Made by a program: the position numbers and the translations under genes. DNA of 64,000 bases from Vicugna vicugna. Lineage: Eukaryota. The notes under the pieces were generated by a model. The model was not told the origin of the DNA, searched no databases, and was given only the letters and a program-made list of their open reading frames with translations. Where the stretch lies: the NCBI GenBank assembly GCA_013265495.1, contig MU057801.1, positions 1,295,879 through 1,359,878 of the forward strand, in the 5' to 3' direction. Of this stretch, positions 4,052-35,476 are shown piece by piece; the first letter of the stretch is position 1, and each line of letters starts with the position of its first letter.

Positions 4052-5375
4052 ATTATTGCATTCTTTTCACAGCTGAGTAAGATTCCATTGTATAATATAC
4101 CAAACTTCTTTATCCAGTCATCTGTCGATGGACATTAGTCTGTCCCCATGCCTTGGCTGTTATAAGTAGTGCTGCTGTGAACACTGGGATGCAGGTGTCT
4201 TTTGGAATTAGAGTTTTCTCAAGATATTATGACCAGGAGTAAGATTGCTGGATCATATGGTAAGTCTATTTTTAGTTTTTTAAGAAACCTCCATGCTGTT
4301 TTCCACAGTGGCTGCACCAAACTGCATCCCCACCAGCAGTGCAGGAGGGCTCCCTTCTCTCCACAGCCTCTCCAGCATTTGTCGTTTGTGGAGTTTTCAA
4401 TGATGGCCATTCTGACTGGTGTGAGGTGGTGCCTCATTGCAGTTTTGATTTGCATTTCTCAAATTATGACTGATGCTAAACATCTTCTCAAGTGCCCCTT
4501 GGCCATCTGTGTGTCTTCTTTGGAGAACTGCCTGTTTTGTCCTTCTGCCCATTTTTTGACTGGATTGCTTGTTTTTTTCATATTGAGCTGTACGAACTGT
4601 TTGCATATTTTGGAAATTAAGCCAGTGTCAGTTGCATCTTTTGCAAATATTTTTTCCCGTTCTGTAGGTTGTCTTTTCATTTCATTCATGGTTTCTTTTT
4701 CTGTGTGGAAGCTTTTAAGTTTAATTAGGTTCCATTTGTTTCTTTTTGCTTTTGTTTCCAGTGCTGTAGGAGGTGGATCCAAAAAAATACTGCTGTAATT
4801 TTTGTCAAAGAGAGTCCTGCCTGTGTTTTCCTCTAGGAGTTTTATAGTGTCTGGTCTTACATTTAGGCCTTTAGTCCATTTTGAGCTTATTTTTGTACAT
4901 GATGTTAGAGAATGTTCTCATTTCAGTCTTCTACAGACAGCTGTCCAGTTTTCCCAGCACCGCTTATTGAAGAGACTGTCTTTTCTCCACTGTATATTCT
5001 CGCCTCCTTTGTCATAGATTAATTGACCGTAAGTGCGTGGGTGTATTTCTGGACTTTTTATCCTGTTCCATTGGTCTGTGTGCCAGCACCACGCTGTTTC
5101 GATTACTGTAGCTTTTTGTAGTGAAGTGTGAAGTCAGGGAGTGTGAGTCCTCCAGCTTCAGTCTTCTTTCTCAGGACTGTCTTGGCTATTTGGATTCTTT
5201 CGTGTTTCCATACAGGTTTAATAATTTTTTGTTCTGGTTCTGTGAAAAACGCCACTGGTAGTTAGGCAGGGACTGCACTGGTCTGTCGATTGCCTTGGGT
5301 AGTGTGGCCATTTTAGCAATACTGAGTCTTCCAGCCCAGGAGCACGGTGTGTGTTTCCATCTCTTTGTGTTGTCC
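4052..5375 (-). mobile_element. L1 fragment (3' part of ORF2), frameshifted
   Basis: Minus-strand peptides [19 protein letters not shown]...[23 protein letters not shown] and PCSWAGRLSIAKMATLPKAI are typical L1 ORF2p segments. Confidence 0.95.
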
Positions 5376-5749
5376 AGTAGCACATCTTTCAATAAGCTAT
5401 GCCCCCTGTGGAAAGGCAAGGTGAGACCTGTGATCCAGTTGAAATAAGCAGCACTCTCCGTTCTTTCCCTTTTGTCTGAAATATCCATGTAAACGTCGTT
5501 TTGGTCTTGAATTTGTTTCTTCATTATATTTTGCCTGTACAGATAGAGCCCAAAAGAGACAATTAGAGGCTACATTATTGAGATTAAAATAGACAAAACA
5601 CACGTGCAAGCCGACTGGGAAAGAAAGTCAACCGGCCCTTCTGAAAGCCGGAAGGCTATTCACGTGATGTCTGAAAATATTGCAGATATTAAAGTAAAAG
5701 ATAAATCTCTAATCTTCACAAGAAGTCTCAGCAGTGAAACAGAAACATA

Positions 5750-6300
5750 AAGGAAGCTTCAAATAAATAAAGACACTTGTGTTTCCGGGAAGGATGGCTA
5801 ATGGCTGTGAGTAATGAGACCTAATTCTTCTCAAATTAGATATTTATTGAAGGCAATTCAAGGTTTGTTTTGGAGGACTTTGAGAAAATAATTCTAAAGT
5901 TTATCTGAAAGAGATAAAAGGCAGGTATTTACAAGCCAGTGATAGGAGATCTCCTATAAAGTATGCTTTGAAGCTACGCTACTTAAAACAATGTGATTAA
6001 GGCATAAAAACAGACAACTGTAGCAGAATTGTTAGTTACGTGATTGTTAATTATACACGAAAAACATTTGGCAAGAGAGGCATCACGGATCAGGAGGTAA
6101 AAGATAAATAATTTAGTAAGTGTTTTGAAATTCCTAACCCTCGACAGTATCAGAAAAGTCAGTGTGTGAACCGTATGCTTGCATCGCATCCATTAACACA
6201 AAATATATGCCTCTGTCACGTGAGAGATTTGTGAAATCATAAACTTGACATTGACACTTTTCACTGTATTTTTATTGTATACAGATATGAACACAAAAAG
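5750..6300 (+). mobile_element. Ancient degraded L1 (L1M/L1ME-like) ORF2 remnant
   Basis: A-rich sequence with L1-like phrases (aattctaaagtttatctg; ttaaaacaatgtg); a similar remnant resumes at ~7500-7900. Confidence 0.5.
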
Positions 6301-6532
6301 AAAGAGGTAAGAAAAAATTACCCTTAGACAACGATGGAGAAAATGACATTTTAGTCACAACCTTCTCCTCTGACAAGCCCACCTCTTCCCCACCGACACT
6401 GACCAGATAACTGGCCAATCCAGGATGTCAGGTGCTGGTTGGGTTCCAGGCGGAATGTTGGTGTGTCCCCGGGGGCTTGTTGTGGCTGGCGGAGCCACGG
6501 CAACTGGGCAGAGCCCTGGGTGGGTCAGTGCC

Positions 6533-7345
6533 ATGGAGGGGCTGCTGTCCTCTGTGGAGCTTGGCTTCATGGCTTCGGGCCTTAGGTTGCTGAGTGCGGT
6601 CCTGGTGGTGCTGCTGCCCAAAGGCCTGTGTTCTCAGCTCACGTTCCAGAGCCTCCCCTGGGAGACAGCGTTGAGTCCGCCTGTCCTCACCTTATTGCTC
6701 AGTATTTTATTTACTTTCAGACTTATTCAGTCTCTTACAAGTCAAGTTAATAGAAGACATGAAAAGCAACTGGCAAAAACACTGGCTGCACAGATCCAGG
6801 AGAACTGCCACCTCATCGACCGGCTTTATGTGGCTAAACAGGAGTGTGCCAGGGTGGAGACAACTCTAAAGGATGCCAGGCTAGGGATGAGCCAGTAAAT
6901 ACACCATGCCTCGCTGACGCCTACAGAAAGGTGATGACGGCCAACCTGAGCTTGAGGAAGGAAATCAGTTTTCTCGTCCGAGAACTGAAGAGAGTGCGAC
7001 CCCTGCAGTCTATACGAGAAGAGATGGCGGAGATGCTAAAGGTGCTCAAGTTCCTGGAGGAGGTCACGAGAATCAGCACATCACAAGGGGCTTTTACACA
7101 CCAACTAGGGGACCGAGCACTGAGTCCTGATGGCCCCCCTCCCAGGAGTGGGCCCTCGTGTTAAAGCCATGCTGTGCCCTCCCCTCCACTCAGGCCTCCC
7201 AAGCGGCCGGGCTACATTCACTCAGTCAGGTCTCTGCCTGAGCTGCACCGAGGCCAGTGGATGGAGGGCAGTCCCTCCTCTGGACCAGAGTCCCTCCAGC
7301 TTTGCCAGTGAGCACAGCAGTGAGCTCCTTCGTGGTCAGCATCTC
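6533..7345 (+). pseudogene. Processed cTAGE5/MIA2-family retrocopy, frameshifted and internally deleted
   Basis: GCCATGG start at 6533. LPKGL...LPWE...hydrophobic segment...RRHEKQLAKTL...VETTLKDA resembles recalled cTAGE5 LPEGM...FPWE...TM...GREKKLALML...VESSLKDA. Similarity continues in the next frame (NLSLRKEISFLVRELK...EEMAEMLK) and then resembles the start of the proline-rich region (ALSPDGP, AMLCPP, PLDQ). No introns. Confidence 0.8.
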
Positions 7346-9062
7346 TCACCTAAAATATACTGGGATTCCCAGAGCACACACACACAAAATGTTTTGGAAA
7401 AGTTGGCAAGCTATTTTGGGGGAAAATATAGATTTATCCTTTTCTTCCAAAACCTTATTTAAATTTCAAATAAATTTAGAATTATATACAAGAAAATTAA
7501 GTAATAGTATTTGAAATTTTAGGGATAAATATATAACTGATCTCTAGAGGAAAAGATACATTCTAAACATAATGAAAAAAATCACAAAGGAAAATGTTAG
7601 TACTTTTGACATAAACTTCTCTCTCTATGCTTAAGAAATGATAAAATACTGTAAAAGTTAAAACATATGAAAAAATATGACTTCCAAATATGGTGGCTTC
7701 AAATAATAAAAATTCATACGTTAGAATCCCTACAGATATGTGGGCAAAGAACAAGATTCAGGAATATTGTGAAATAAACATAAATGAAAAATAAATTGGT
7801 GAAAATATTCAGACTCACCTGTAATGAAAGAAATGCCATCAAAACAGCTACGAGACACCGTTTCGCTCATGAAATCAGGAAAGACTGAAAGGCGATGGTG
7901 CCGTGGAGGCTGTTAGGGCTGGGCTGTCACGCGCTGGTAGGAGCGGGAGGGAGCCGGTGCCGGTCACGGAGCAGGACCCCTCCCGGTAAGTCCTCTTCCA
8001 GGACAGCCTCCCGAGAAGCCGGCCGCCCTGCAGGCAGAGACGCAGAGCTGTTCACAGCCATCTCACCTCCACTGTCATGTTGACAAGTTTTAAAAAAATT
8101 TGATGGAACTTAAGAGTACATAGGGTGTCACAGCGATCATTTCTAAAAAGTGTATTATTTCCCGTTTGCCCCTTCCTTTGGATTTTGTCTGTAAGCAGAG
8201 GTGGGAGAGGGTAGGTGTGGTGGATAAATACCTTCCGCTCCCTCAGCTCCCCGCTGGAAGTCAGAGGGCCCCGGGGCCCAGATAACGTGGCTTTAGAGGG
8301 CAGCTTCCCCGGGCGAAGAGCCGAGGAGAGGAGGGTGGAACTTGGGGCCAGGTGGCGGCCCCCCGGAGGATCAGAGCAGGAGGCTGAAGGGCACCGACAG
8401 CCCCCCTGCAGAGGAGCCCAGGGGCTGCCCCTTTCTGCTCCGCTGCACGGCTCCGGCCGCGTTTCTCGTCGCGCGTGGCAGACAGATGGCCCGCACCTGT
8501 GACCCCTGACCTCCACGTCCCCCTCCCGCCCCCCGCGTATTTTGGAGGCTTGTGCTGTGGCACGGGGGGTGGGGTGCAGTGACACGCCGGGGATTTGCTT
8601 TAAAACACTGCAGCAAGAAGAAAATGGTTCTAGAGCAAAGGTCAGCTGAAGTGAATGTGTCAACATCCAGTGACTGGAATATGGCGCTGTCCGGGGTGGG
8701 GAGGGTGCTGTATATTCTTTTGAATGCTTGAAATTTGTCATCATAAACTTTGCTTTAAAACTGTATAACATACCAAAAAAACTGCATGACAGCAGTTGCC
8801 ATGGCAACATAAGTGATGGCCTCACCCAAATAGACGTGTGTGCAGACCTCCCAAAGCTCCCAAGTTCCTGGCCCGCTGCCCCCCTCCCAGGCCTCCACGC
8901 GGAGGGCATGACCGCCCCCCAGCACGGGGTGCGCTACTGGAAAACGTGCTGCCCCGTGTTTCTCCGGGTGGCCCGGACAAGGATGGAGGTCGCTGTGGTC
9001 ATGCACTTCACCTGGAACTTTAAAATTAAAAGAAAAGGAGTTATCTGAGGCCCCTCAGAAGA

Positions 9063-35407: not shown

Positions 35408-35447
35408 GGCCGGGGCCCCGCAATTTATGCCGCAAAGTTGTAGCTTC

Positions 35448-35476
35448 NNNNNNNNNNNNNNNNNNNNNNNNNNNNN
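35448..35476. other. Assembly gap (29 N) inside the NKX2-2 5' UTR
   Basis: Run of N in the sequence. Confidence 0.99.

What the first reader, a model, noticed from the sequence alone, without database searches (positions are those of the whole stretch)
6533..7164. cTAGE5/MIA2-like retrocopy is one G away from an intact 210-aa ORF
Seen: a strong Kozak ATG (GCCATGG, 6533) opens 121 codons to TAA 6896-6898. The similarity continues stop-free in the -1 frame to TAA 7162-7164. Adding one G to the run in CTA GGG ATG (6884-6886) gives ...LGDEPVNT... and a 633-nt ORF. Established: cTAGE5 is a single-pass ER-exit-site protein that binds TANGO1 through coiled coils. Inference: the protein is very diverged from cTAGE5 yet has no in-frame stops on either side of the shift, which is unexpected for a long-dead copy. 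It may be a retrogene that is still intact (homopolymer assembly error) or only recently lost, encoding a TM + first coiled-coil-only protein.
Basis: partly seen in the sequence, partly recalled or inferred. Interest (0 to 1): 0.7.

Follow-up and report, generated by a model that had tools for sequence, protein, structure and literature searches.

The report
Dead retrocopy of short cTAGE5 family
This is a genuinely broken, reverse-transcribed copy of a small unnamed mammalian gene family derived from the front quarter of the ER-export gene cTAGE5; the copy is ordinary, but the family is present in many copies and keeps an intact protein in several mammal groups.

Summary
The coordinates hold (121-codon ORF, stop-free -1 frame to 7164), but the reading does not. 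The lesion is real: a short-read contig at single-copy depth matches the window across it. Intact relatives also have three Gs (CTA GGG AAG GAG), so this is no homopolymer error. The parent is not cTAGE5 (about 30% identical) but a natively ~210-aa family with the same start and stop, found in camels, canids, bat, squirrel and tree shrew; in camelid-type runs it has about 50 times single-copy depth. Against that parent, no stop codons is expected (20-47% at 2-6% divergence). The unit (about 6124-7389) has a 5' inversion, an A/AC tail and unique flanks, the marks of L1 retroposition. The copy has lost family-conserved residues, including the lysine matching cTAGE5 K89, needed for Sec12 binding. 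No copy-specific expression was seen in one RNA run. The scan met this family before on other DNA and read it as gene loss or DNA duplication; the high copy number, inversion and conserved Sec12-contact residues are added here.

The parts
6118..6130 (.). candidate left target-site duplication (suggestive only)
   Evidence: 11 of 13 letters match 7387-7399 at boundaries set by the inversion and tail; 16 of 327 and 28 of 327 flank windows score as well; an unanchored search was not significant
6124..6220 (-). inverted 5' segment of the unit (twin-priming type 5' inversion)
   Evidence: L001 1186-1269 matches window 6207->6124, 71% over 84 bp, E 1e-6; score 48 vs 28 at most in 1000 shuffles; by eye it extends to about 6220
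6225..6532 (+). upstream/leader part carried with the unit; MYB-like (6408), CCAAT (6415) and CRE-half-like (6425) motifs; in-frame ATGs at 6425 and 6455
   Evidence: 80% identical to L001 over 285 columns; multi-copy depth at 6250-6532; motifs are recalled consensus patterns scanned with no chance control
6533..6898 (+). 121-codon ORF: N-terminal half of the family protein, ending 4 codons after the lesion
6668..6739 (+). transmembrane segment (about residues 46-69)
   Evidence: hydropathy windows starting at 46-51, at the same place as in cTAGE5 and P0080
6719..6883 (+). equivalent of cTAGE5 61-115 (Sec12-binding region); this copy has Y71N and K89N (AAC at 6803-6805)
   Evidence: all laid contigs in 4 of 4 runs have A or G at 6805, i.e. 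Lys; residues from PMC4927275 passages
6887..6888 (+). frameshift lesion: AT in place of the relatives' AAG
   Evidence: tables 3, 4, 7 and record 5
6889..7164 (+). C-terminal half in the -1 frame, ending at the family's own stop
   Evidence: 70% identical to dromedary P0006 down to the last residue; 15 of 97 family proteins end in the same motif
7165..7370 (+). 3' UTR shared with other copies; AATATA at 7354-7359 as likely polyadenylation signal
   Evidence: matches L001 to 7359; multi-copy depth falls to flank level after about 7390
7371..7389 (+). A/AC-rich tail, likely a decayed poly(A)
   Evidence: sequence; an X16 contig leaves the window at 7379 (record 16); L001 has a similar A-rich run at the same place, so part may be inherited
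7387..7399 (.). candidate right target-site duplication, start of unique flank
   Evidence: single long contigs from 7319 on, 0 differences, depth 12.2/10.9/34.8 in 3 of 3 DNA runs

Best explanation
A processed pseudogene. Early in placental mammals the first ~193 codons of cTAGE5 gave rise to an intronless ~210-aa gene (TM + Sec12-binding segment + part of coil 1 + short new tail). Source copies of this gene keep an open frame in many lineages and spread within each. In the camelid-type lineage an RNA of one source, beginning at least 410 nt upstream of the ATG, was copied by L1 machinery with twin priming (5' inversion) into the region ~27 kb downstream of NKX2-2. The copy then took a frameshift (AAG to AT) and lost conserved residues, so it makes no full-length protein. 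Shown: sequence, lesion, family, multi-copy depth, inversion, unique flank. Inferred: L1/twin-priming origin, which copy is the inverted one, non-function. Function of the intact family (speculative): a membrane-anchored Sec12/cTAGE5-contacting piece lacking coil 2 and the Sec23-binding PRD, i.e. a modulator or decoy at ER exit sites.
For: Lesion real: X1 record 5 (104 bp, 6858-6961, 0 differences, 0 gaps, depth 11.6 vs 12.2 for the unique flank). Family: 24 of 97 short-family proteins span the full ~210 aa; named ones from Camelus, raccoon dog, wolf, bat, squirrel, tree shrew; the window groups with C. ferus P0003 and P0007 at 100/99, apart from cTAGE5/TANGO1. Multi-copy: 364-465 contigs laid per DNA run; median depth 46-55 times the flank over 15 of 30 bins. 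Retroposition marks: inversion, tail, flanks unrelated to L001 in 4 of 4 comparisons; PMC2912911 passages describe such inversions for L1 and mRNA retrocopies. Decay: 11 of 38 family-conserved columns broken (one is a gap at the lesion) vs 0-11, median 2, in 26 members; K89N where 25 of 26 have K and one R; 10 non-synonymous vs 2 synonymous majority differences. No stops expected. No in-frame slippery heptamer.
Against: The target-site duplication is not significant. The inversion is symmetric between two copies; that the window is the inverted one rests on its edge coinciding with the candidate TSD and on my recalled reading of L001's upstream DNA as continuous old L1. Record 5 has 29 letters left of 6887, two short of the tool's 31-letter bridging rule (met for 6889), and X1 may be the source sample. 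In X2 and X5 only the intact-junction contig was laid at 6886. Summed contig depth is not a copy number and overlapping contigs inflate it. Members define the consensus, so their low break counts are biased; P0020 (11) and P0029 (9) break about as many. Only one RNA run (contigs) was laid.
Confidence: 0.75

Rival explanations
1. A dead copy made by DNA-level duplication, or an old locus of the family lost in this lineage, not a fresh retrocopy (the reading of earlier scan notes on other DNA).
For: Wolf has several copies on one 123-Mb contig; TSD weak; the A-rich 3' run is partly shared with L001; a small inversion can arise without twin priming.
Against: Depth drops to single-copy right after the tail in 3 of 3 DNA runs; flanks are unrelated to L001; the inversion sits at the 5' edge and joins the forward part almost without loss; only one copy in the 64-kb window.
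Confidence: 0.12
2. A recently lost or still polymorphic functional copy: the locus is intact in related species or individuals and broken only here.
For: In X2 and X5 the only contig laid at 6886 has the intact junction; the locus is present in organisms A, B and C (identical 3' flank).
Against: The same intact-junction contig type occurs in X1 at depth 28.9 beside the window allele at 11.6, so it is most likely a paralogue; contigs drop variants; the window allele is at full single-copy depth in X1; K89N and Y71N; window alleles absent at most diagnostic sites in RNA run X16.
Confidence: 0.08
3. The 121-aa truncated product (TM + Sec12-region only) is made and used.
For: Strong Kozak context; single exon; the stop falls just after the cTAGE5 61-115 equivalent; upstream promoter-like motifs came with the copy.
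Against: The K89 equivalent, whose single mutation reduces Sec12 binding, is Asn; excess of non-synonymous changes; no copy-specific RNA contig in X16.
Confidence: 0.03
4. An intact 210-aa retrogene; the assembly dropped a G in a homopolymer.
For: One base restores an ORF with exactly the family's start and stop.
Against: Short-read contig identical to the window across the site at single-copy depth; intact relatives have the same three Gs; the lesion is a two-letter difference outside the run.
Confidence: 0.02

Closest known systems
cTAGE5 (short isoform of MIA2), ER exit-site scaffold
   Same: Co-linear from Met1 to residue ~193 (34% for intact P0004 vs raccoon dog P0046); TM and the Sec12-binding region 61-115, with R61, E75 and K89 kept in 26, 25 and 25 of 26 members.
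   Different: The family is ~210 aa, lacks coil 2 (direct TANGO1 binding) and the PRD 651-804 (Sec23/24 binding); intronless; fast-evolving; S97 kept in only 5 of 26; this copy is frameshifted.
Primate CTAGE retrogene family
   Same: cTAGE5-derived intronless copies expanded within a lineage (PMC4949931 and PMC2394760 passages).
   Different: That family began in the Haplorhini ancestor and grew by DNA duplication; this one is short, lies on a long separate branch, spans Laurasiatheria and Euarchontoglires, and this copy shows retroposition marks.
L1-mobilised mRNA retrocopies with 5' inversion (twin priming)
   Same: Inverted 5' segment joined to the forward segment, A-rich tail, 13-bp candidate TSD overlapping the inversion edge (PMC2912911 passages).
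   Different: The donor is itself a retro-derived single-exon gene, the unit includes 400 nt upstream of the ATG, and copies reach SINE-like numbers in one lineage.
Short cTAGE5-like copies noted earlier in this scan (e1-7852267, e1-625976, e1-7801663)
   Same: Broken intronless copies of an old mammalian cTAGE5 offshoot.
   Different: Those notes read them as gene loss or DNA duplication; one is a 503-codon form; I did not see their DNA.

Membership tests
cTAGE5/MIA2 (TANGO1 family) | Homologous TM + juxtamembrane coiled coil | tested here: met
   Atlas neighbours include TANGO1-like clusters; long helices in a low-confidence model, pLDDT 56
cTAGE5/MIA2 (TANGO1 family) | Coil 2 (TANGO1 binding) and C-terminal proline-rich domain (Sec23/24 binding) | tested here: not met
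   homology ends at cTAGE5 ~193-195; the family stops at ~210 aa
cTAGE5/MIA2 (TANGO1 family) | Sec12-binding residues E75/K76, K89, S97 | tested here: inconclusive
   family keeps E75 (25 of 26) and K89 (25 of 26) but not S97 (5 of 26); window copy has E, K, then N at 89 and Y at 97; binding untested
cTAGE5/MIA2 (TANGO1 family) | Localisation to ER exit sites | not testable with these tools
   needs cell work
Unnamed ~210-aa cTAGE5-derived family | Shared start, C-terminal motif and stop, and shared upstream and downstream DNA | tested here: met
Unnamed ~210-aa cTAGE5-derived family | Open ~210-codon frame | tested here: not met
   frameshift confirmed in run X1
L1-made processed retrocopy | No introns relative to the parent mRNA | tested here: met
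   continuous match to cTAGE5 1-195 over 6533-7090; that cTAGE5 is multi-exon is recalled
L1-made processed retrocopy | 3' poly(A) tail after a signal, unique flank beyond it | tested here: met
   AATATA 7354-7359, A/AC run 7371-7389, depth falls to single copy; tail is decayed
L1-made processed retrocopy | Target-site duplication | tested here: inconclusive
   11 of 13 match; 5-9% of flank windows score as well
L1-made processed retrocopy | 5' truncation or inversion | tested here: met
   84-bp inversion against L001, above 1000 of 1000 shuffles; polarity inferred
Primate CTAGE retrogenes | Haplorhine origin, close to cTAGE5 in sequence | tested here: not met
   about 30% identity, separate clade, non-primate members
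Programmed -1 frameshift gene | Slippery heptamer in frame before the stop | tested here: not met
   none in 6536-6895

The most novel reading that the evidence does not exclude
The copy is a fossil of a protein-coding, non-autonomous retroposon: a ~1.3-kb cTAGE5-derived unit that carries its own promoter region, so copies can seed further copies through L1, has radiated separately in camelids, a suid-like clade, carnivores and bats, and whose source genes encode a TM-anchored Sec12/cTAGE5-contacting decoy that tunes ER export in reproductive tissue. Supporting hints: tens of copies by depth, lineage-specific clades, 400 nt of upstream DNA inside the unit, family RNA contigs in a reproductive-tissue run, more invariant columns than a neutral model gives, and a model that pairs an intact member with cTAGE5 coil 1.
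Probability: 0.25. Interest if true: 0.7.

Novelty: new variant of a known kind. Interest (0 to 1): 0.35.

Why it matters
The copy itself is a pseudogene and matters little. The family behind it is unnamed in the protein databases (no Pfam match; mostly 'hypothetical') and I found no paper on it in eight searches aimed at it or its kind. It keeps a ~210-codon frame across mammals while evolving at near-neutral speed and multiplying within lineages. If its sources are translated, it is a natural cTAGE5 truncation that keeps the Sec12-binding segment without the TANGO1- and Sec23-binding parts, a ready test of modular control of ER exit sites, and a case of a coding gene spreading like a SINE. 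It also explains repeated 'nearly intact cTAGE5 retrogene' flags in this scan.

Tried and rejected
Homopolymer error: rejected. Programmed frameshift: no slippery site; six GT..AG pairs could restore the frame on paper but have weak contexts and no read support. Pfam: 0 families for 3 of 3 queries. Rfam: none in 5500-8000. Foldseek against PDB with the pLDDT-56 model of P0072: no match at E<=0.001. Aligning the flanks to a younger L1 in the window: not above shuffles in 4 of 4 tests, so 'inserted into old L1 ORF2' stays a by-eye impression. Unanchored TSD search: 64 of 120 control windows score as well. dN/dS window vs L001 (200 codons, both copies broken): 0.68-0.94 depending on kappa, intervals include 1, so no clear purifying selection from DNA. 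No whole genome is held, so no copy list or synteny. The metagenome scan gave 1 locus from 142 pattern matches. Scan look-ups by sequence and place returned nothing. The species of the window was not determined beyond 'camelid-like'.

Full report
Observation. The ATG in GCCATGG at 6533 opens 121 codons to TAA 6896-6898. The -1 frame is open from 6838 to TAA 7162-7164. The span is 632 nt, one short of 210 codons plus stop. NKX2-2, recognised from recalled motifs, lies on the minus strand at about 33.9-35.4 kb, so the copy is about 27 kb downstream of it. No whole genome is held.

The parent is not cTAGE5 itself. The two halves match raccoon dog cTAGE5 (P0046, 806 aa) at only 30% and 31%. Much closer relatives exist: 4 hits among 73 candidates, 50 representatives at E<=0.001, and 34 and 18 profile hits among 8000 scored candidates each. 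Of 113 proteins held, 97 besides the window's two halves fall in a short family by a score rule; 24 of the 97 span the whole ~210 aa and 15 end in the same C-terminal motif; the other 73 are partial or broken, and many entries are redundant cluster members. Dromedary P0006 matches the window's second half at 70% down to the last residue. Named members come from Camelus ferus, bactrianus and dromedarius, raccoon dog, wolf, the bat Phyllostomus, the squirrel Ictidomys and tree shrew; most are unnamed, many on 0.9-1.5 kb contigs. An intact member aligns with cTAGE5 from Met1 to residue 193 and no further. In a 48-row tree of the N-terminal half, cTAGE5 and TANGO1-like rows form a 99/99 clade apart from the family; the window groups with C. 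ferus P0003 and P0007 (100/99), and other well-supported clades (9 rows with the L001-like protein, 9 unnamed rows, 4 rows with the bat) point to separate expansions; the backbone is unresolved.

The lesion is real. Fourteen DNA runs from six coded organisms hold 0.46-0.53 of the words; three of them and one RNA run were laid on 6250-7450 at 90% likeness. In X1 a 104-bp contig (6858-6961) equals the window with no difference and no gap at depth 11.6, against 12.2 for the unique flank. It has 29 letters left of 6887, two short of the tool's bridging rule, and X1 could be the source sample; either way short reads agree with the assembly. The nearest intact-junction contigs, in 3 of 3 DNA runs, read CTA GGG AAG GAG, and loose ends show CTA GAG AAG GAG. 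The G run is therefore three long in intact copies too, and the window has AT for AAG. In X2 and X5 only the intact-junction contig was laid there; since the same type sits beside the window allele in X1 at 28.9 and contigs drop variants, I read it as a paralogue, but the state of this locus in organisms B and C is open.

It is one of many copies. 364-465 contigs were laid per DNA run. Summed depth over 15 of the 30 bins (those without extreme spikes, 6619-7356 less three) has a median of 46, 48 and 55 times the flank, range 6-132. The tool warns that this is no copy number; 'tens of copies at 90% likeness or more' is my reading. Depth falls to single copy after about 7390, where 1.9-4.4 kb contigs with no difference take over, so the locus is shared by organisms A, B and C. 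The listed paralogous pieces differ from the window by about 4-10%, with near-identical pieces that may be the locus itself. In a neutral simulation the chance of no stop in both halves is 0.47, 0.27 and 0.20 at 2, 4 and 6% divergence, and one frameshift is the expected load under an assumed indel rate.

How it arrived. The metagenome scan gave one DNA relative, L001 (1 of 142 pattern matches), a broken copy (stop at codon 63 and a frameshift) whose SINEs look suid-type to me (recalled). It matches window 6225-7268 at 72% and 7309-7359, well beyond the ORF on both sides, and L001 1186-1269 matches window 6207->6124 inverted (score 48 vs at most 28 in 1000 shuffles). The inverted piece abuts the forward piece at the same L001 position, the geometry of twin priming, which PMC2912911 describes for L1 and mRNA retrocopies, with short microhomologies and TSDs peaking at 14-16 bp for some classes (passages seen). 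The 3' end has AATATA at 7354-7359 and an A/AC run at 7371-7389. Flanks are unrelated to L001's in 4 of 4 comparisons. A 13-bp candidate TSD (6118-6130 / 7387-7399, 11 of 13) sits at these boundaries but 5-9% of flank windows score as well. That the window rather than L001 is the inverted copy is inferred. The unit includes about 410 nt upstream of the ATG with CCAAT, MYB-like and CRE-half motifs (recalled patterns, no control), so copies may inherit a promoter.

Signs of decay. Against 26 members, the window breaks 11 of 38 conserved columns (one a gap at the lesion); members break 0-11, median 2, though they define the consensus. PMC4927275 (passages) maps Sec12 binding to cTAGE5 61-115 and names E75/K76, K89 and S97 as critical, K89A alone reducing binding. 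The family keeps E75 and K89 in 25 of 26 each but S97 in only 5; the window has Asn at 89, and all laid contigs covering 6805 encode Lys. Among 33 typed of the 40 shown (69 in all) difference rows, 22 are majority differences, with 10 non-synonymous and 2 synonymous in the ORF. RNA run X16 (reproductive-system label) gave 231 family contigs, mostly 90-95% alike, lacking the window's letters at most diagnostic sites. This hints that the family is transcribed; DNA carry-over is not excluded, and nothing shows this copy is.

Is the family under selection? dN/dS between the window and L001 is 0.68-0.94 with intervals that include 1, and the coding part has diverged more than the leader. Yet open frames with one start and stop persist across groups, where a neutral frame at 28% divergence would survive stops 0.3% of the time. 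Among 13 chosen members, 5% of 180 columns are invariant and the spread of conservation is 0.229, against at most 3.6% and 0.192 in 25 neutral star-tree runs at slightly higher mean identity; the 7 invariant residues listed all equal cTAGE5's. Identity to cTAGE5 peaks in 61-97 (0.50 vs 0.25-0.36 outside the 61-115 region), a region the searches also favoured. Weak constraint on the juxtamembrane helix is the fair reading.

Likely function of intact members (inferred). cTAGE5 binds TANGO1 directly through coil 2 and Sec23/24 through its PRD (PMC3128532 passages) and Sec12 through coil 1 (PMC4164946, one passage). The short protein keeps the TM and the Sec12 segment only, so it could bind Sec12 or cTAGE5 without linking to the coat. 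A predicted complex of intact P0072 (60-186) with cTAGE5 (58-200) scored 0.73 against a best control of 0.00; the mark was reached by 51 of 78 solved complexes and 2 of 108 mismatched pairs, on eukaryotes by 39 of 65 and 2 of 126; the runs agree in at least 2% of contacts, one of three scored 0.00, and partner pLDDT is at least 53. Both chains are coiled coils and relatives of each other, a case the calibration did not test, so this is a weak hint. The modelled interface includes residues 124-184, which the window's truncated product lacks.

Literature and earlier notes. Searches (listings and abstract starts seen) found no description of this short family; one search was for cTAGE5 function. 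The library lacks most subscription papers, and no supplements were read, so gene lists there could name it. The known CTAGE expansion is primate-specific and DNA-based after one retroposition (PMC4949931, two passages citing a primary paper I did not see; PMC2394760, two passages). Three earlier scan notes on other genomes describe copies of what appears to be the same family; I saw them after forming my reading and did not check their DNA.

Verdict. A real, ordinary processed pseudogene (0.75). The intact-gene reading is about 0.02. The interest lies in the unnamed, high-copy, frame-conserving family, whose retroposon-like spread and Sec12-decoy role are plausible but unproven (0.25). Interest 0.35.

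Noticed in passing
window 6386-7349: Majority differences from the camelid-type paralogues run 14 AT-to-GC against 6 GC-to-AT (6 of the 14 in CpG), the reverse of plain decay; could be GC-biased gene conversion or CpG loss in the paralogues (33 of 69 rows used).
   Followed up: partly
window 6414-6495 and 6537-6577: Depth spikes of 30,000-119,000 in the DNA runs, the first also in the RNA run, from short contigs of something extremely abundant; unexplained.
   Followed up: no
window 6497-6612: One RNA contig (X16, depth 107) skips 114 nt including the ATG, with non-GT/AG ends; probably a deleted paralogue.
   Followed up: no
window 6567-6590: The window has 3 extra bases and a local rearrangement here (in frame) that other copies lack; no contig with the window's letters at 6569-6579 was laid in any run.
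   Followed up: partly
window 7121: All laid contigs in 4 of 4 runs read C where the window has T: a private variant or an assembly error.
   Followed up: no
P0003, P0005, P0006, P0032: Camel gene models of the family are odd: P0003 repeats its first 50 residues, and the others splice in an unrelated GC-rich stretch, suggesting chimeric transcripts or models.
   Followed up: no
P0025, P0102: Wolf has at least five accessions of a diverged member on one 123-Mb contig, a likely tandem or ampliconic array.
   Followed up: no
P0019: A 1606-aa predicted protein made of three tandem ~530-aa cTAGE5-like units.
   Followed up: no
window about 35,440-35,470: The window's run of N letters lies just upstream of the NKX2-2 start codon.
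   Followed up: no
window about 4200-5300: A younger L1 ORF2 fragment on the minus strand, recognised from its translation (recalled likeness).
   Followed up: partly
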